Sequence record: MH560358
DNA length: 64,000 nt
Source of the DNA: Escherichia virus KFS-EC
Reading direction: 5' to 3' (one strand)
The position numbers were made by a program, and so were the translations under genes. Of this stretch, positions 17,680 to 40,154 are shown one piece after another (the first letter of the stretch is position 1; each line of letters opens with the position of its first letter). The notes below the pieces were generated by a model. The model was given only the letters and a program-made list of their open reading frames with translations, was not told where the DNA came from and did no database searches.

Positions 17680-18348
17680 TTATCCCCTTTGTTTCTTAAC
17701 TGAATTTGGATCTGGATTTTCTGGTAGGTCTTCCAGACCCATAGCATAACGTTGTGCATAGATTAGCATAAGAATATCGCGAGCGCAATCATGAATTGCA
17801 TCATGTGCGATAAAACCATCTAGCGTACCCATTGGTAACGGACACTCACACATCCCGCGATGCATCAATGTACGCTCAATGGCGGTGCGAACATCTCGGA
17901 TATTCCAGAATCGCACAGGTTCAAGGCTGAACGTCTCTCGTGTATTGTGTGCACGGCGGATCATATCAACTAGTAACGGAATATCAAACGCATTACCGCG
18001 TGACCACAATACGGATTTAACCGGATCTACTCCTACGGCTTCATAGAATGCGTTAAAACGCGCTAAACCTTCTTTAGTTGATACTTCCGTACCATTTGTG
18101 ATTAATTGCTTTCTCATGCCTTCTGAGGCGGTATTCTTCCACCATTCAACCACACCATGATCAAACACCCTTACACCTTTCTGGGAAGGAATATCAAATT
18201 TTACCAGAAAGGAATTGTCAACCAGTTCTTTAAATGTAGGTGGATTGTGCGGATCTTCTTTAAATCCGATTGCCGCCATATTGATAACCGCCCCATCAGG
18301 CGGATAACCTAAACTTTCAAAGTCAATCATTAAATCCACTGGAAGCAT
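17680..18348 (-). CDS. dexA: exonuclease A (DnaQ-like 3'-5' exonuclease), DexA homolog
   Basis: 222 aa (T4 227); N-terminal MLPVDLMIDFESLG exonuclease motif I; position between 39 and dda; GGAGG RBS before ATG 18348. Confidence 0.8.
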   Translation of the reverse strand: MLPVDLMIDFESLGYPPDGAVINMAAIGFKEDPHNPPTFKELVDNSFLVKFDIPSQKGVRVFDHGVVEWWKNTASEGMRKQLITNGTEVSTKEGLARFNAFYEAVGVDPVKSVLWSRGNAFDIPLLVDMIRRAHNTRETFSLEPVRFWNIRDVRTAIERTLMHRGMCECPLPMGTLDGFIAHDAIHDCARDILMLIYAQRYAMGLEDLPENPDPNSVKKQRG

Positions 18349-18349
18349 T

Positions 18350-18589
18350 TTAAATATCCTCCGCGATGTGCCGGAATAACTCCAGATCATTTTTATCTAA
18401 CACTAGATTGCATTTGGTTGACCGATAATTGCAAACATTAATCAGTAAACTTTCCATCGCCTGTACCGACTGTACTTTATGTCGAAAAGACATTACATGT
18501 TGTGCATAATCAGCGTGAATTTTATCACGATGGAATGTTACGATGGCATCTAAACATAACAGTTTATCAATTTCATCAATAATCATCAT
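18350..18589 (-). CDS. hypothetical small protein
   Basis: 79-aa ORF between dda and dexA. Confidence 0.4.
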   Translation of the reverse strand: MMIIDEIDKLLCLDAIVTFHRDKIHADYAQHVMSFRHKVQSVQAMESLLINVCNYRSTKCNLVLDKNDLELFRHIAEDI

Positions 18590-18590
18590 A

Positions 18591-18773
18591 TCAGTAACCC
18601 CGCTTAGTGAAGTGATCTATCATGGAATTAATACAATCGGCCTCGCTGATTCCAGATATACCCCATCCGTAGTTACCCCACCTGAAATGCATGTATACAC
18701 ATTCGCCATGATACGATACTTTCACTTCGTCAAATTCTGGGATACTTCGCATAATCATAATAATATTCCTCAA
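18591..18773 (-). CDS. hypothetical small protein
   Basis: 60-aa ORF overlapping dda stop. Confidence 0.4.
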   Translation of the reverse strand: MRNIIMIMRSIPEFDEVKVSYHGECVYMHFRWGNYGWGISGISEADCINSMIDHFTKRGY

Positions 18774-20161
18774 ATATAGTCTACACGATACCGAGCACGG
18801 GTAACACCAACATATAATAACTGCATTGCCAATTCAAAGTCAACATTGTCTGTACACATGCAAGGGGTATACAGGAACACGCGGTCTACGCTGATCCCTT
18901 GTGACTTATGAATGGTGCAAGCTGGTAATGCTTTTACATTCAAGAACATACGCCTCATCGTCCAGAAGGAATCCCAATCTGGTTTAAATTTTGGATTCTC
19001 TTTCTTCATTTCGCGATATTGTCCGGCGACCGTATTCAGATAGATAGAGAAAATGTTCTTCTGACGTTGTTCTGTCAGAATGTTGATTTCTACTAAATCC
19101 GGTTTATCTGTAGTGATTCCGACTGCATCTAAACCGACTTTCTGATTTAGGATTTCTTTGTCTTCGTCATCATCGACGCTTTCCACTTTCAGAGTATAGC
19201 CTAAAACTGGTTGCGGATCTACCCCCGTGCAACGTAATGTAAATTCGCGCGGGATGACCTCTTTAACTCGGATCATCTCACCATTGTTAAAAATAACATT
19301 GGGAATCTTCTTCCCGCGTTCATCTCGCAGATATTCGATCAACGGTTCCTGAGTAACCAGAATTTCATCTACAATCACTGGTTCATCGGTGTTATAAACG
19401 CGCTTACGTACAATTTCATTGAGTTTTTCGACGCTCTTGTTAGTGTAGGCCAGAATACGGTTTTCTAGAAGGTCTTCCGGCGTTTTAACGGTTTCGAAAT
19501 AATGCTTCATAAACTCCGGCAGAGTTGAGCTATGGAATACACCCTCGTTACCGCACTGCTTTTCGAATACCCATTTACCGTTACGGACAGCGGTCGCCAC
19601 ATCAATTATTGGCGCATTAGATCGTTTAATCTCTGTAAGTTCTACATTCTGGAACCTTTCATCGGTGAAGAAAGGAGAGATCGACGTTGCACCGCTCGTA
19701 TCAACTGGTCGTAACTGGTACAGATCACCCACAGCAATAATAACAATTCGACCGTTAATACTCTTCATGAGGATATCAAATAGTTTCTTATCGACCATAC
19801 TCGCTTCATCAACAATGATGATCTGAACATCATCAAGTTTAGGAGTATCTTTTTGCTCAAATACTTGAGTGTCTTCATAGTTGGTCGGATTGAGTCGCAG
19901 AAGTGCATGTAAGGTAAACGCTTGACGGCCTACCGCCTTACTCAAAACTTTTTTAGCCTGGTGGGTAGGCGTTGCCAAAACCACACCAGTTACACCACGG
20001 CGGACCATTTCCTGAACAATGAATTTCATCATTGCGGTTTTACCAGTACCCGCCGCACCACGGACAGTTGTATGCTTCTTTTGTTCAATACGTTTCATTA
20101 GAACATCAAAAGCATGTTTTTGCCCGTCTGTTAACATATCGAAAGTTAATACTCTGCTCAT
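18770..20161 (-). CDS. dda: Dda DNA helicase (SF1)
   Basis: 463 aa; Walker A GAAGTGKT, Walker B IIIVDEASM, SF1 motifs; T4 order dexA-dda. Confidence 0.9.
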   Translation of the reverse strand: MSRVLTFDMLTDGQKHAFDVLMKRIEQKKHTTVRGAAGTGKTAMMKFIVQEMVRRGVTGVVLATPTHQAKKVLSKAVGRQAFTLHALLRLNPTNYEDTQVFEQKDTPKLDDVQIIIVDEASMVDKKLFDILMKSINGRIVIIAVGDLYQLRPVDTSGATSISPFFTDERFQNVELTEIKRSNAPIIDVATAVRNGKWVFEKQCGNEGVFHSSTLPEFMKHYFETVKTPEDLLENRILAYTNKSVEKLNEIVRKRVYNTDEPVIVDEILVTQEPLIEYLRDERGKKIPNVIFNNGEMIRVKEVIPREFTLRCTGVDPQPVLGYTLKVESVDDDEDKEILNQKVGLDAVGITTDKPDLVEINILTEQRQKNIFSIYLNTVAGQYREMKKENPKFKPDWDSFWTMRRMFLNVKALPACTIHKSQGISVDRVFLYTPCMCTDNVDFELAMQLLYVGVTRARYRVDYI

Positions 20162-20475
20162 TATCCTAAAATCCTCACCTTGCGAACACAGATAGTATTG
20201 AGTTCTCGCCGTACCCGTTCTTTTTCATATTCAGGAATTTTATATTCGATACCATCCCGAACAATTTCAGAAGACCGGATTATGCCAAATTTTCGTTTAG
20301 GTACAACCTTGTATTTCGGTTCACCCGCCAATAGACTCTCACAATAATCTATCTGATCACACATTGACGCTAACGCAGCATCATGTGTTTCGCAAGTTAG
20401 GACGCGACCCTTCGCGTCCACTGAGTATTGAAAGAATCCGTCTTTATCACGATAACATATAGCAAATACATGCAT
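20161..20475 (-). CDS. hypothetical protein
   Basis: 104-aa ORF, start/stop overlaps with neighbours. Confidence 0.5.
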   Translation of the reverse strand: MHVFAICYRDKDGFFQYSVDAKGRVLTCETHDAALASMCDQIDYCESLLAGEPKYKVVPKRKFGIIRSSEIVRDGIEYKIPEYEKERVRRELNTICVRKVRILG

Positions 20476-21230
20476 TATAAACCTACCTTCGCTTTCATCA
20501 ATTCAATCCACGACGCATCAATCGGAAGCCCGTATTTCACGCGTTCTTTTTGTGCTGGCGTTAAGTTCTCATACTTAGAAAGAGATTCAATCAAAACGCT
20601 GGTATATTTTAGCACGATTTCGGTATTGTTTGCAATAGCCTTAAGTTTTTCTTCTTTCTTGTTGATTTCGCTAAGGGCTTGCTTGAGATCTGCAATTTTC
20701 TGATAACGTTCTTCCATACGGAAGAGAGTATTTTTAATCGCTCGCTCGGCTGCCTCTGCTTTCTCCGGTTCGTTGTGCTTTTTGTGGCGCTCGATTGCTA
20801 ATTTCTTTTCTTCGATTGCTATTTCCTGATTTTTGATGCGATTCTCGTTAAGTTCGATCCACTCGATGTACTTCGCACGTAGGGTAATTTCATCATCAGA
20901 AAGTTTACCGTTAGTTCCTAGTTCCTGGATCTCTTTAAGAGATTCGATAGTGTGATTGCCACGGAAAGAATTGTATTTCCGTTTAACCGGAATTACATTG
21001 CCATCAACATATCCTAGATTGCAATCAATGCGCTCTAAGGAGAGTCCATCATCACCTTCACCGAACGCTTCACCTGAATATGCGCAATGAGTCTGACGGT
21101 AAATGTTACGCACAGTGACTAAGCTCATAGAGAAGTCTTTGTTGCGACGTGAAGCGCCAGTCATGATAGAGTTCAGACGGAAAACAACCAGCGCCAATTC
21201 TTCGTTAGATTTAAAAGCAAACAGTTTCAT
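20475..21230 (-). CDS. hypothetical protein with degenerate HNH-like N-terminal motif and C-terminal coiled coil (occupies the srd-like position)
   Basis: 251 aa; HCAYSGEAF..DGLSLERID..GYVDGNVIPV resembles an HNH core lacking the catalytic His; Lys/Glu-rich C-terminal half. Confidence 0.5.
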   Translation of the reverse strand: MKLFAFKSNEELALVVFRLNSIMTGASRRNKDFSMSLVTVRNIYRQTHCAYSGEAFGEGDDGLSLERIDCNLGYVDGNVIPVKRKYNSFRGNHTIESLKEIQELGTNGKLSDDEITLRAKYIEWIELNENRIKNQEIAIEEKKLAIERHKKHNEPEKAEAAERAIKNTLFRMEERYQKIADLKQALSEINKKEEKLKAIANNTEIVLKYTSVLIESLSKYENLTPAQKERVKYGLPIDASWIELMKAKVGL

Positions 21231-21864: not shown

Positions 21865-22383
21865 TTAGTAGCCGCGTTCTTGACGGGCGAAGTTTTCAGC
21901 ATTTTTCAGATAGTACAGCTTGAAGATATCCTTAGCGGTTAAACCTAAGCCCAGCATTTTAATCAGCACAAAATGCCAGATATCGATCAATTCCATCGAA
22001 ATTTCGGTTTTATCGTCATCTGACAGGTCAGCAAATTTACGCGATCGTGCTTCGCCGTGGTTTTTCTTCCACACTTTAGTAATTGCGCTTGCATCTTTGC
22101 CATTTGACATGCCACCCAGGGCAACATAAAGTTCTCGTGTCTCGTCGTCGATTGCGTCATCCCACAACTTCATCCAGTCAAGGATTTCTCCACAAGTTTC
22201 CAGCTTATCAGGATGCGGCACCCACTCAAATTTATCAGCTAGTGCGACCTGTAATCCTTTTTGCATATCTAACATTACTTGCAGCGGATCTTTGCCGCTA
22301 GTGATTGCCTCGGAATACGCAATACCAGCTTTAGACATAGTTTCATCATTAACAAGACCAGCACAAGAATTAAATTCACTCAT
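21865..22383 (-). CDS. 56: dCTP pyrophosphatase (MazG-like), gp56 homolog
   Basis: 172 aa from ATG 22383 (T4 gp56 171 aa); MazG-type EExxE motifs (ELIDIWHF); longer track ORF starts upstream. Confidence 0.8.
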   Translation of the reverse strand: MSEFNSCAGLVNDETMSKAGIAYSEAITSGKDPLQVMLDMQKGLQVALADKFEWVPHPDKLETCGEILDWMKLWDDAIDDETRELYVALGGMSNGKDASAITKVWKKNHGEARSRKFADLSDDDKTEISMELIDIWHFVLIKMLGLGLTAKDIFKLYYLKNAENFARQERGY

Positions 22384-22393
22384 AATAAACCTC

Positions 22394-22957
22394 TCAAATA
22401 ACATTAAACACTGCAAATTCACCGTGATACTTATACGCATAGTCATTATATACTATTGCGGCGTCTATTTCTAGGTCAAATTGTCCTATATAGACTTTAT
22501 TTCCTTCATTGTCCCTTATCTGGGCGACCCATTTACCCGAACGACTATTATAATGCACTCCTTTAAAATTGCTAGTTTTAGTTTGGTTATTTCTTCTCAT
22601 ATTTTGGGTATTCTGTTTTTGTGTCGCCTCTCTTAAGTTTGGAGGGTCGTTGTTTTCTGGATTCCCGTCAATATGGTCAATGACAGGTGGGCAATACCCA
22701 TGCTCTAAGAAGAATACTATTCTATGCACAAGCTCAAAATATTGTTTTCCTTCAAAAGAAAACGAGACTTTTAGGTGTCCGGCTGTGACTTTAGATACCT
22801 TTACTATATCACCAACCTTATAAAACTGGCCTTCTTTCGTCGTTCGGCTTGCTTTGCTGTTTGTTTTATGAATCAATATACCACTTTCGTGTCTATATCT
22901 TCGACGTATTTCATCCTTTAGTTCATCGCTCCATTCTTTGGCTTTCCTTACCCTCAC
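22394..22957 (-). mobile_element. free-standing homing endonuclease gene, HNH nuclease plus AP2 DNA-binding domain
   Basis: 187 aa; HNH core IDHIDGNPENNDPPNLREATQKQN; AP2-like FKGVHYNSRSGKWVAQI...YIGQF; GTG start with GAGGG RBS; inserted between genes 56 and 61. Confidence 0.75.
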
Positions 22958-22974
22958 AATACAACCCTCATTAA

Positions 22975-24003
22975 TTAAAATTTACAATATTTCATAAACC
23001 GCATTTTAGCCATCAGACCTTGTACGGTGTTCTCTTTGATATATTCCATGATCTGGTCGCGTGTAGCGCCCTCGTCCTGAATCATGGCGTTAACGTCTTT
23101 AGAATGCCACGGGCAACGGTCCCACAATACAATCTTTTCCCCTGCATTGATAAACTTTTCCAGTCGGTGCATTGTATCGGCAGACCGTGGTTCCGCATCA
23201 AGTACAAACACTCGCTGGTCTGGGAAAGGGATTTCATCTAATCCCAAAGTACCGCCAGTAATTGCACACCCGTTATCAATAAACAATGAATCGATCGGAC
23301 CTTCTAAGAAATACACTGGTTTACTCGGATCGGCGCGTTCAAGACCATAGACCTTACTCGCTAACTCGTGAGTTTTAATCGTCATATATTTGGTCTTTCC
23401 GTAATCCTTTCTCAATGCTCGCCCCTGAATGGATTCTATCTTGTTCTCGCGGTTAAAGATAGGAATCACTAAACGTGGTTCAGGTTGTGGATTCTTGAAA
23501 GTATCAGCCTTAATGTGATTTGCTACCTTTTGCCATTCTCTCGTGAAATACAGAAGATCCCATTTATCGTGAGGGATGCAACGATCACTGACATACTTTA
23601 TTATAGGATGATTAGCCGGAAGAGTATCTAATCTCTCGCAGAAAGGCAATGTTTGCACTTTCTTAATCTCCGACTTTTCTACCTTTTTCAGTGGCTTGAA
23701 CGTGGTGTTCTTGTGGTCGCCTTGTTCCTTCCGTCGTTCCATAAGCCATTCCCTGAATAGGTCCGGCTTATACTGTTTGAGAAATTCACCTAACGGCTGA
23801 TTGTAGTTACAGTTGAAACAGCCGCAACGCAAACTATCCTTATAGGTATAGATACGGAATCGCGCTTGAGTATGATTTTTCTTTGAGTCACCGCAGATCG
23901 GACAACTACAGACCAGCGTAAATGAGCTAGTATGCAACCGTTTAAAATTTCGTTCGCCGTATATGGCTTTTTCCGCTATTTCATAATCTGCGTAGTAAAT
24001 CAT
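22975..24003 (-). CDS. 61: DNA primase, gp61 homolog
   Basis: 342 aa (same as T4 gp61); N-terminal zinc ribbon CPICGDS...CFNC; TOPRIM region. Confidence 0.88.
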   Translation of the reverse strand: MIYYADYEIAEKAIYGERNFKRLHTSSFTLVCSCPICGDSKKNHTQARFRIYTYKDSLRCGCFNCNYNQPLGEFLKQYKPDLFREWLMERRKEQGDHKNTTFKPLKKVEKSEIKKVQTLPFCERLDTLPANHPIIKYVSDRCIPHDKWDLLYFTREWQKVANHIKADTFKNPQPEPRLVIPIFNRENKIESIQGRALRKDYGKTKYMTIKTHELASKVYGLERADPSKPVYFLEGPIDSLFIDNGCAITGGTLGLDEIPFPDQRVFVLDAEPRSADTMHRLEKFINAGEKIVLWDRCPWHSKDVNAMIQDEGATRDQIMEYIKENTVQGLMAKMRFMKYCKF

Positions 24004-24012
24004 AATAACCTC

Positions 24013-27398: not shown

Positions 27399-28148
27399 TT
27401 ATTCTATGTCAACAAATTTCCAATTTGGAAAGTCTGGACTCATACAACGACGCCGAACGGTTCCGCGCTCGTTTCCTAGTACCTTAGATACTTCCGATAC
27501 AGATTTATAAATCACACCATCAACAAATACAGCCTTTCGGTCTTTCCTGTTTTGGTTTTTGCTCTTTTCTCTTCTGGCTTCTACGTTATCCGAATCATTC
27601 CATTGTCTCTTTGCTGTCTCTCTGGAAGATATTGCCTTTTGTTCTTTAACAATATCTTTAACGAGTTGTTCTTGTCCTGTTATCTTCGCCCACACATTAA
27701 CAGACTGGATAGCATTAGCCTCACTCATTCCCCAGCGTTTGCCGGATATATTCTTACGACGCACGCGTAGAAATTCGTTAAAGACTTCTTCGCATTGGTG
27801 CATATAATCACGAAATCCATATTTCTTAGCCCATGCCTCTTTAATTGCATCAGACATATTTTCGGCAATACGTCTACGCATCCATGCATACTCCTTATTA
27901 TTGCGACCGTGACTGGTCATGCACATCATACGCGAAGCCATAATAAGACCCACATGTTTAGGATACATTTTAGCTAAAAGTAGATGTGCTGTAAAGTGTT
28001 CCTCTGGAGTCAATGGAACGAGATTTTCGTGGTCATCGGTTCCACCCATACAACGTGGTTTAACGTGATGGATCTCTACATATCCGGTCGGCTTCTCGCG
28101 GGTTCTTGCTCGTTCAATCAATTTTTCGTAATGTGCTTTGTAGTTCAT
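27399..28148 (-). mobile_element. free-standing HNH homing endonuclease gene
   Basis: 249 aa from ATG 28148 (GGAGGA RBS); HNH core YVEIHHVKPRCMGGTDDHENLVPLTPEEHFTAH; basic C-terminal DNA-binding tail; inserted between gene 40 position and uvsX. Confidence 0.75.
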
Positions 28149-28163
28149 GTGATCCTCCATATG

Positions 28164-28183
28164 AAAAAGGGGCATAACGCCCC
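28164..28183 (-). terminator. rho-independent terminator after uvsX
   Basis: minus strand GGGGCGUUAUGCCCC hairpin followed by UUUUU, 16 nt after uvsX stop. Confidence 0.55.
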
Positions 28184-39088: not shown

Positions 39089-40114
39089 CTAACTTTTTGC
39101 GTTATTTACTTCGGCTAAAAGTTCATCAGAAATACGCTTGACCGCCGCAAGTTCTTCCGGTTCTAGGTTTTGTTCTTCCAGATATTCATAGACCATCTGA
39201 ATAGTGCTTTTAACTTCAATAACACCTGTTTCCTGTGATGCGCTACTCTCCAGTTTATGGACCACTTTTAGCTTGTGTACAACGGCCTCTAACGCGCTTT
39301 CTAACTTAGTTAATCCATTATCAGCGACCGTTGCGATAAGACGCACACTAAGCCCTTTAAATCGTTCTACATCGATTTTATCGTCTGACGGGTAAGTGAT
39401 ACGCACATGATAAGTTTTGTCATTCTGGATAAACTCTTTTTTGTGTGTATCGGTATCGAATACCCAAAAACCACGCGGATCGTTTTCGTCACCCGCCGTT
39501 AGTGTGTATGGTGTACCAATATACGTTACGTTACCGCCATCACTAATAGTATGAAAATGACCAGAAAACACTTCACGGTATTTCTTGAGGAAGTCCGCGC
39601 TATAACCTTCGGATTTTAGCCCTTTATAGAAATAGTAACCGGACAATTCCCAATGGCCTACACAATATTCGCTGAATGAGTTTTGAATAAACTCTAAAAT
39701 CTCTGATTTATTGTCATCACAAAACCACGGGAACAGATCAAATGATACACCATCAAAGGTAACTGTTTCAGGTTTATCAATGACCTTAATGCAATCATAC
39801 TGGCTTAACACTTCACGCGGTGCGTTAGGCTGGATCTTGTTTCGTTTAAACATATCATGATTCCCGACCGTGGTATAACAAGTAATACCAGCCTCTTCCA
39901 GTAACGGGATGACCTTAGTACGGTTAAATTTCATGGTTTCATGGGTAATTGCTTTTCGGCAATCAAACCAATCCCCTGTTTGAATCCATGTCTTAATATT
40001 ATGCTCTTTGGAGTATTCAACCGCTTTCTTGATGGTATCAAGAATATACTCATGCACCCACGGATCATCGCCACCGATACCAGTATGCAGATCACCTAAA
40101 AGCAAAATTTTCAT
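39089..40114 (-). CDS. 47: recombination endonuclease subunit (SbcD/Mre11-like), gp47 homolog
   Basis: 341 aa (T4 339); calcineurin-like phosphoesterase motifs (LLLGDLH, GDWFD, GNHD, GHFH). Confidence 0.9.
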   Translation of the reverse strand: MKILLLGDLHTGIGGDDPWVHEYILDTIKKAVEYSKEHNIKTWIQTGDWFDCRKAITHETMKFNRTKVIPLLEEAGITCYTTVGNHDMFKRNKIQPNAPREVLSQYDCIKVIDKPETVTFDGVSFDLFPWFCDDNKSEILEFIQNSFSEYCVGHWELSGYYFYKGLKSEGYSADFLKKYREVFSGHFHTISDGGNVTYIGTPYTLTAGDENDPRGFWVFDTDTHKKEFIQNDKTYHVRITYPSDDKIDVERFKGLSVRLIATVADNGLTKLESALEAVVHKLKVVHKLESSASQETGVIEVKSTIQMVYEYLEEQNLEPEELAAVKRISDELLAEVNNAKS

Positions 40115-40154
40115 AGTCTCTTCCTCTCTTCGTTTTCGATGCTCTCACTATATC

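What the first reader, a model, noticed from the sequence alone, without database searches (positions are those of the whole stretch)
22394..22957. Free-standing HNH-AP2 homing endonuclease inserted between genes 56 and 61
HNH nuclease core with an AP2-type DNA-binding domain, GTG start, wedged into an 11-nt and 18-nt gap between conserved genes. This is typical of a mobile homing endonuclease, and the insertion site may mark a recombination hotspot.
Basis: partly seen in the sequence, partly recalled or inferred. Interest (0 to 1): 0.4.

Follow-up and report, generated by a model that had tools for sequence, protein, structure and literature searches.

The report
Free-standing HNH-AP2 homing endonuclease gene
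This is an ordinary selfish "homing endonuclease" gene, of a well-described HNH-AP2 type, sitting between the primase and dCTPase genes of an RB49-like coliphage; most close relatives lack it and have a clean empty site, and public records already annotate it.

Summary
An intact 187-codon ORF with a GTG start lies at 22394..22957 on the minus strand, between gene 61 (primase) and gene 56 (dCTPase) of a Krischvirus (RB49-like T4-type phage). The gaps are 17 and 10 nt, not 18 and 11. Its central region matches I-HmuI-type HNH nucleases with the catalytic residues in place. Its C-terminal domain is AP2, by sequence and by a confident predicted structure. The other 48 records that span the junction, including RB49 and Phi1, are insert-free where inspected, with a 14-nt spacer. 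Over about 10 kb of flank, all 9 differences fixed between 7 carriers and 6 empty-site phages lie within 133 bp on the gene-56 side. All 9 are synonymous or intergenic. Diversity among carriers is lowest over the insert and gene 56, while both flanks are recombinant mosaics. This fits homing with co-conversion and a target near the start of gene 56. Cleavage and homing were not tested. HNH-AP2 homing genes in RB49-type phages were described in 2004-2010, and GenBank already labels this gene a homing endonuclease. It is ordinary, with low interest.

The parts
22394..22957 (-). Homing endonuclease ORF (187 aa, GTG start, TGA stop)
   Evidence: It is intact in all 7 carriers.
22733..22957 (-). 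N-terminal region (residues 1-75): one helix plus beta-hairpins. Residues 46-75 align with the N-terminal beta-sheet DNA-binding region of I-HmuI.
22601..22732 (-). HNH (beta-beta-alpha-metal) nuclease core, residues 76-119. D94, H95, N107 and N116 align with I-HmuI residues 74, 75, 87 and 96.
22403..22570 (-). AP2 DNA-binding domain, residues 130-185: three beta-strands (134-137, 142-148, 154-160) and a helix (163-181)
22958..22974 (-). 17-nt spacer after the gene 61 stop codon. The GAGG at 22966-22969 is the gene-56 Shine-Dalgarno in empty-site phages; here it sits 8 nt before the endonuclease GTG. The left edge of the insert is after 22966.
22384..22393 (-). 10-nt spacer GAGGTTTATT carried by the insert. 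It gives gene 56 a replacement Shine-Dalgarno 6 nt before its ATG.
22255..22387 (-). Tract of 9 substitutions fixed in carriers versus empty-site phages: Ser2 TCA>AGT, Leu10 CTG>CTT, Asn12 AAC>AAT, Asp13 GAC>GAT, position 22255 and two spacer positions. All are synonymous or non-coding. I read it as a co-conversion tract and/or a target-site immunity variant.
21865..22383 (-). Gene 56 (dCTPase), the downstream neighbour and most likely target gene. It occurs as two alleles in Krischvirus; the insert is found only with the window-type allele.
22975..24003 (-). Gene 61 (DNA primase), the upstream neighbour. Its last 66 nt are invariant in all 13 genomes compared.

Best explanation
A free-standing, promoter-less homing endonuclease gene of the HNH-AP2 class is inserted in the 14-nt spacer between genes 61 and 56 of a Krischvirus. 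Shown: it is a 577-bp cassette that takes over the gene-56 ribosome-binding site for its own GTG start and brings a replacement site for gene 56, so the 61-56 operon stays intact. Shown: the protein has an I-HmuI-like N-terminal sheet, an HNH core with the catalytic Asp-His...Asn...Asn residues in place, and a C-terminal AP2 DNA-binding domain. Inferred: in a mixed infection with an insert-free relative, the enzyme recognises a site at or near the 61/56 junction, most likely in the first 40 bp or so of gene 56. It then nicks or cuts that site, and I-HmuI-type HNH enzymes are typically strand-specific nickases. Recombinational repair using the carrier genome as template then copies in the cassette together with the adjacent start of gene 56. 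Inferred: the carrier is protected by the insertion itself and by the linked synonymous changes in gene-56 codons 2-13. Inferred: expression is kept low by read-through transcription from gene 61 and the weak GTG start.
For: Domains and catalytic residues. Presence or absence among relatives whose flanks are 91-99% identical, with a precise 577-bp difference. All 9 differences fixed between 7 carriers and 6 empties, among 1241 variable columns in about 10 kb, fall at 22255-22387, and none falls in gene 61. The Ser2 codon swap TCA>AGT changes three bases and cannot be reached through single synonymous steps. This points to import from a diverged donor allele rather than mutation in place. Nucleotide diversity among carriers is 0.0042 in the insert and 0.0077 in gene 56, against 0.030 in gene 61 and 0.013-0.027 elsewhere. 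The block 21999-23040 has one parsimony-informative site, while both flanks show four-gamete violations, so the block sits on recombinant backgrounds. The insert has GC 0.372 and GC3 0.33, against about 0.43 and 0.43-0.46 in its neighbours. Within the gene, carriers differ at 5 synonymous and 3 non-synonymous sites, the latter all in residues 10-36, and every copy is intact. Relatives about 48% identical sit in other tight junctions next to replication genes: after the topoisomerase gene, between rpbA and gene 45, and upstream of gene 47 in RB49. Reciprocally, the window is empty where RB49 carries its own HNH-AP2 gene. Literature: the HNH-AP2 class of homing genes is reported in RB49, RB43, RB16 and JSE (PMC1524935; PMC2993671 Table 5). 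Gene 56 is already a known homing target in T4, cut by SegF (PMC2988022 Table 1).
Against: There are no biochemical or genetic data, so cleavage, target site and biased inheritance are all inferred. Carriers are few (6 of 54 database genomes, 0 of 3 IMG/VR junction matches). All carry the same gene-56 allele type. One ancestral insertion spread by ordinary recombination would therefore give much the same pattern. The Pfam AP2 score is just below the curated cut-off. I found no late promoter and no RNA structure hiding the ribosome-binding site, so nothing regulatory points to controlled expression. The selection signal within the gene rests on only 8 substitutions.
Confidence: 0.75

Rival explanations
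1. An inactive or decaying relic. The gene entered one ancestor once and has since been passed on vertically and by ordinary homologous recombination. The enzyme no longer drives its own spread.
For: Only 6 of 54 related genomes carry it, always with the same gene-56 allele type and the same junctions. The nearest other relatives are below 50% identical, so there is no sign of recent movement to other sites or genera. Many T4 mob genes are of unproven activity (PMC2988022 Table 1).
Against: All 7 copies are intact, the catalytic residues are conserved, and substitutions are mostly synonymous at 5:3. Diversity is lowest over the insert, and the linked tract stays sharply delimited despite recombination on both sides. 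That is what active drive or a very recent spread predicts.
Confidence: 0.15
2. A domesticated nuclease or DNA-binding protein kept for the phage's benefit. It might exclude co-infecting relatives, attack satellites or host DNA, or regulate transcription through the AP2 domain.
For: Homing-type nucleases can give marker exclusion and have been linked to phage-satellite conflict and anti-defence effects (PMC10448857; PMC13096335). AP2 domains are transcription factors in plants.
Against: Its sporadic distribution among near-identical phages argues against a needed function. Its position, size and architecture are those of the mobile family. Nothing regulatory was found around it. Exclusion of relatives is in any case a by-product of homing, not a distinct mechanism.
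Confidence: 0.07
3. The gene is ancestral at this site and the insert-free relatives lost it by deletion.
For: Presence/absence data alone do not give direction.
Against: The six empty sites read through are identical to one another. Two of them (RB49, Sf20) carry a gene-56 allele 24% diverged from the other four. They keep one tight 14-nt spacer with a functional Shine-Dalgarno. Repeated independent deletions would not be this precise. The insert is lower in GC than its surroundings and less diverse than its flanks.
Confidence: 0.03

Closest known systems
The same gene in Escherichia phages vB_EcoM_G2494 (QBO62982.1), phiS, ELT3, AV108, vB_Eco_TB34 and vB_Eco_SAP
   Same: 98.4-98.9% amino-acid and 99.0-99.3% nucleotide identity. 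Same position between genes 56 and 61, with the same junctions. Annotated there as HNH or homing endonuclease.
   Different: The window copy has 4 private substitutions: R25S and three synonymous changes. No record reports any experiment on it.
HNH-AP2 homing endonuclease class of T4-related phages (RB49ORF040c; RB43, RB16 and JSE members)
   Same: Same size (about 185 aa), the same HNH_3 plus AP2 architecture, and a free-standing position in tight junctions next to replication or recombination genes (PMC1524935; PMC2993671 Table 5).
   Different: Only 38-47% identical, and each sits at a different site. RB49ORF040c lies upstream of gene 47, where this window is empty. The target specificity is therefore presumably different.
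I-HmuI (PDB 1U3E), the intron-encoded HNH homing endonuclease of Bacillus phage SPO1
   Same: The N-terminal sheet and the HNH core align with the catalytic residues conserved. By analogy this enzyme is probably a monomeric strand-specific nickase.
   Different: I-HmuI is encoded in an intron and ends in helical and helix-turn-helix DNA-binding modules. This protein is free-standing and ends in an AP2 domain.
T4 free-standing homing endonucleases: Mob (HNH) and SegF (GIY-YIG, targets gene 56)
   Same: Promoter-less cassettes between essential genes that spread with co-conversion of flanking markers. SegF shows that gene 56 is a recurrent target (PMC2988022).
   Different: SegF is a GIY-YIG enzyme inserted downstream of gene 56, between soc and 56. 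Mob proteins have other C-terminal domains, not AP2.

Membership tests
HNH / His-Me finger nuclease, I-HmuI-like (Pfam HNH_3) | Sequence match above the curated family threshold | tested here: met
   HNH_3 scores 51.2 bits against a cut-off of 24.8, E=9e-14. I-HmuI matches at E=1.2e-05.
HNH / His-Me finger nuclease, I-HmuI-like (Pfam HNH_3) | Catalytic His (general base) plus Asp/Asn metal ligands and the structural Asn | tested here: met
   D94, H95, N107 and N116 align with I-HmuI residues 74, 75, 87 and 96. They are invariant or nearly invariant in 12 homologues. The roles assigned to the I-HmuI residues come from my own knowledge of the published structure.
HNH / His-Me finger nuclease, I-HmuI-like (Pfam HNH_3) | Beta-beta-alpha-metal fold | tested here: met
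   The AlphaFold2 model has mean pLDDT 87.3, with strands 93-95 and 108-110 and helix 113-118. The top Foldseek PDB hit is I-HmuI, probability 1.00.
HNH / His-Me finger nuclease, I-HmuI-like (Pfam HNH_3) | Metal-dependent DNA cleavage or nicking | not testable with these tools
   Needs purified protein.
AP2 DNA-binding domain | Sequence match to the family | tested here: inconclusive
   Pfam AP2 scores 29.9 bits against a cut-off of 33.3. However, phmmer hits WRI1, ERF096 and AtERF1 AP2 domains at 9e-08 to 4e-04.
AP2 DNA-binding domain | Three-stranded antiparallel sheet packed on a C-terminal helix | tested here: met
   The model has strands 134-137, 142-148 and 154-160 and helix 163-181. It superposes on 1GCC at 2.0 A over 61 residues, with TM 0.78 normalised to the target.
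Free-standing homing endonuclease gene | Intergenic, not inside an intron or intein, with neighbouring genes left intact | tested here: met
   It lies between the gene 61 stop and the gene 56 start. Both neighbours are full length and each has a Shine-Dalgarno.
Free-standing homing endonuclease gene | Sporadic presence with precise empty sites in close relatives | tested here: met
   6 of the 54 records that span the junction carry it. The empties differ by exactly 577 bp.
Free-standing homing endonuclease gene | Flanking markers linked to the gene (co-conversion tract) | tested here: met
   All 9 fixed differences lie within 133 bp on the gene-56 side. There is a diversity trough and a haplotype block on recombinant backgrounds. 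This is a population signature, not an observed conversion event.
Free-standing homing endonuclease gene | Site-specific cleavage of the insert-free allele and resistance of the carrier allele | not testable with these tools
   Needs a cleavage assay on RB49-type and window-type junction DNA.
Free-standing homing endonuclease gene | Greater than input inheritance in mixed infections | not testable with these tools
   Needs phage crosses.

The most novel reading that the evidence does not exclude
The enzyme's target is the translation-initiation region and first 13 codons of the dCTPase gene. Repeated homing here has replaced gene 56 alleles wholesale, producing the two alleles 24% apart with an edge 38 nt from the start codon. 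The 61/56 junction would then be a nuclease-defined boundary of genetic exchange in Krischvirus. The AP2 domain would read the G/C positions that the carrier allele has changed to A/T.
Probability: 0.25. Interest if true: 0.35.

Novelty: already known. Interest (0 to 1): 0.15.

Why it matters
It matters little for discovery. The class (HNH-AP2 homing genes in RB49-type phages) was described in 2004-2010, and public records already annotate this exact gene at this exact site. There is some practical value. Natural carrier and empty-site phages with 97-99% identical flanks make a ready donor/recipient pair for measuring homing by an AP2-guided HNH nuclease. None of these enzymes from T4-like phages has a mapped target, as far as the papers I read show. 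The linked-substitution tract narrows the search for that target to about 45 bp. For annotating this window it explains a low-GC gene and warns that gene 56 and its surroundings are mosaic.

Tried and rejected
1. I looked for further copies of this family in the window by tblastn. There are none: the best other hit has E=1.1 and lies inside gene 47, so it is chance.
2. I looked for control elements. There is no T4-type late promoter TATAAATA within 37 kb of the gene. Sigma-70-like sites are not enriched (11 found, 7.2 +/- 2.9 expected). One such site, TAGAAA-17-TATAAT at 22473-22445, lies inside the 3' end of the ORF and could feed gene 56, but it is only a consensus match. No RNA hairpin hides the start region (z = -0.24).
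3. I searched 5.8 billion proteins for intermediates between 50% and 98% identity that would show recent movement elsewhere. None turned up; only 11 hits came back, partly because of the word-index limit.
4. I scanned IMG/VR for the carrier-type gene-56 start. There were no matches, against 3 for the empty junction.
5. I tried to read Magnani et al. 2004 (PMC520932). It is not held, so I cite it only through PMC1524935 and PMC2993671.
6. I rejected a packaging-associated HNH role. T4-type terminases do not use one (my own knowledge), and the gene is absent from most relatives.

Full report
**What is there.** The window is a Krischvirus, an RB49-like T4-type coliphage. A 2.3-kb segment around the finding matches 75 phage records, the best at 98.8% identity. 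On the minus strand the gene order is primase gene 61 (22975..24003), the ORF in question (22394..22957) and dCTPase gene 56. The true start of gene 56 is the ATG at 22383. The mechanical ORF list extends it to 22446. The ORF has 187 codons and starts at a GTG, the first possible start after an in-frame stop. The next in-frame ATG is at codon 120. A GAGG lies 8 nt upstream. The spacers are 17 nt and 10 nt.

**What the protein is.**
- Pfam gives HNH_3 at E=9e-14 (residues 76-117) and AP2 at E=7e-07 (residues 130-179). The AP2 score is 3.4 bits below the curated cut-off.
- PHROG 99 'HNH endonuclease' matches residues 11-183 at 1e-44.
- Against solved structures, residues 46-125 align with the homing endonuclease I-HmuI (1U3E, E=1.2e-05). 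Residues 109-185 align with plant AP2 domains (WRI1 9e-08, ERF096 1e-04, AtERF1 2e-04).
- D94, H95, N107 and N116 align with I-HmuI residues 74, 75, 87 and 96. In the published I-HmuI structure, as I recall it, these are the metal ligands, the general base and the structural Asn. They are invariant or nearly so among 12 homologues.
- An AlphaFold2 model (mean pLDDT 87.3, pTM 0.77) shows an N-terminal helix and hairpins, a beta-beta-alpha core, and a three-stranded sheet plus long helix.
- The best Foldseek PDB hits are I-HmuI and AP2 domains. AtERF1 superposes at 2.0 A over 61 residues, with TM 0.78 normalised to the target.

**Is it an insertion?** Yes.
- 54 phage records cover at least 80% of a query spanning the 56/61 junction. 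Six of them carry the ORF at this site: G2494, phiS, ELT3, AV108, TB34 and SAP. Their inserts are 99.0-99.3% identical in nucleotides to the window's.
- All 34 insert-free relatives listed, including RB49, Phi1, GEC-3S and the very close OZ035808 and MIZ6, span 1723-1725 bp instead of 2301.
- On the gene strand the empty site reads TAA-TTAATGAGGTGAAT-ATGTCAGAATTT.
- The occupied site reads TAA-TTAATGAGG[GTTGTATT-GTG...ATT-TGA-GAGGTTTATT]-ATGAGTGAATTT.
- The cassette thus uses the former gene-56 Shine-Dalgarno for its own GTG and supplies a new GAGG 6 nt before the gene-56 ATG. Both neighbours stay intact.
- The insert has GC 0.372 and GC3 0.33. Its neighbours have about 0.43 and 0.43-0.46.

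**Evidence bearing on mobility.** I aligned about 10 kb around the site from the window, the 6 carriers and 6 empty-site phages.
- Of 1241 variable columns, only 9 are fixed between carriers and empties. All 9 lie at 22255-22387, the first 129 nt of gene 56 and the spacer, and 8 of them lie within 43 bp. None is in gene 61.
- The coding changes are all synonymous: Ser2 TCA>AGT, Leu10 CTG>CTT, Asn12 AAC>AAT, Asp13 GAC>GAT. The Ser swap changes three bases and cannot arise by single synonymous steps. The start of gene 56 in carriers therefore most likely came in with the cassette from a diverged donor.
- Nucleotide diversity among carriers is 0.0042 in the insert and 0.0077 in gene 56. It is 0.030 in gene 61 and 0.013-0.027 in other neighbours.
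- Between 21999 and 23040 there is one parsimony-informative site. Informative sites are dense on both sides and give all four gametes; sites 23041 and 23116 are one example. A conserved block of about 1 kb holding the cassette therefore sits on recombinant backgrounds.
- Another region (18300-18800) groups the window, G2494 and AV108 with the empty phage OZ035808, against the other carriers.
- Within the gene, carriers differ at 5 synonymous and 3 non-synonymous sites. The non-synonymous ones are all in residues 10-36, and every copy is intact.
- These patterns are what homing with co-conversion predicts, and the asymmetry points to a target on the gene-56 side. They are population signatures. 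One recent insertion spread by ordinary recombination would look similar.

**Family context.**
- The nearest other relatives are 38-49% identical. They sit in comparable tight junctions next to replication or recombination genes. Examples are next to gene 46 in RB16 and Klebsiella phages, after the topoisomerase gene in a metagenomic contig, and between rpbA and gene 45 in another.
- RB49's own HNH-AP2 gene, ORF040c, lies upstream of gene 47. The window is empty there, with the junction at 40111-40115. So the two phages each have an HNH-AP2 gene where the other has none.
- Nolan et al. 2006 report HNH-AP2 homing genes in RB49 and RB43 and cite Magnani et al. 2004 (PMC1524935). Petrov et al. 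2010 list an 'HNH-AP2' column: RB49 1, JSE 2, RB43 3, RB16 6 (PMC2993671, Table 5).
- In T4, gene 56 is the target of the unrelated GIY-YIG endonuclease SegF (PMC2988022, Table 1). The dCTPase gene therefore attracts homing genes repeatedly.

**Recombination hotspot?**
- Gene 56 is dimorphic. RB49 and Sf20 differ from the window type by 24% across 21919-22345, yet are nearly identical to the window across most of gene 61 and most other flanking bins.
- The upstream edge of the divergent block is 38 nt from the gene-56 start, next to the insertion site and the linked tract.
- By the identity bands, about 35 records appear to have the RB49-type allele and 17 the window type. All carriers have the window type.
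- This fits the view that nuclease genes sit at boundaries of genetic exchange (PMC10448857). I did not test breakpoint enrichment formally.

**Expression.** I found no late promoter, no enrichment of sigma-70-like sites and no structure masking the start. The gene looks like a promoter-less cassette read through from gene 61, with a weak GTG start. Several T4 seg and mob genes are arranged the same way (PMC2988022). This is inference.

**Verdict.** The element is an ordinary member of a described class, and six GenBank records already annotate it as an HNH or homing endonuclease. Endonuclease activity, target site and biased inheritance are untested. Interest is low.

Noticed in passing
window 27399..28175 (-): A second, unrelated free-standing homing-type gene (258 aa) lies between gene 40 and uvsX. 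It has an HNH motif (Pfam HNH, E=0.002, below the cut-off) and a C-terminal I-TevI-type DNA-binding domain (E=2.7e-06). Of the 12 relatives compared, only Shigella phage Sf20 has matching sequence here, and it annotates an HNH homing endonuclease at that position.
   Followed up: partly
window 24004-24012; L016 6212-6775 (TB34) and L008 6212-6775 (SAP): Phages TB34 and SAP carry another 564-bp homing-type gene (NUMOD4 + HNH_3 + helix-turn-helix, no AP2) just upstream of gene 61. Their primase gene is therefore bracketed by two such genes. The window has only a 9-nt spacer there.
   Followed up: partly
window 40111-40115: This is the empty site for RB49ORF040c, the HNH-AP2 gene that RB49 carries upstream of gene 47. 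565 bp of RB49 are missing here, with clean flanks 95-99% identical.
   Followed up: yes
window 21919-22345: Gene 56 (dCTPase) occurs as two alleles 24% apart within Krischvirus, with sharp edges inside the gene. Most of the neighbouring gene 61 is nearly identical between the same phages.
   Followed up: partly
window 18300-18800: A block about 28% divergent lies over the small ORFs between dexA and dda. It splits the 13 genomes into two groups that cut across carriers and empties.
   Followed up: no
window 20475..21230 (-): The Srd-like anti-sigma factor gene (PHROG 1400, 4e-73) also gives weaker matches to HNH / endonuclease VII phage families (2e-12 to 3e-05). This hints at a nuclease-derived fold.
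   Followed up: no
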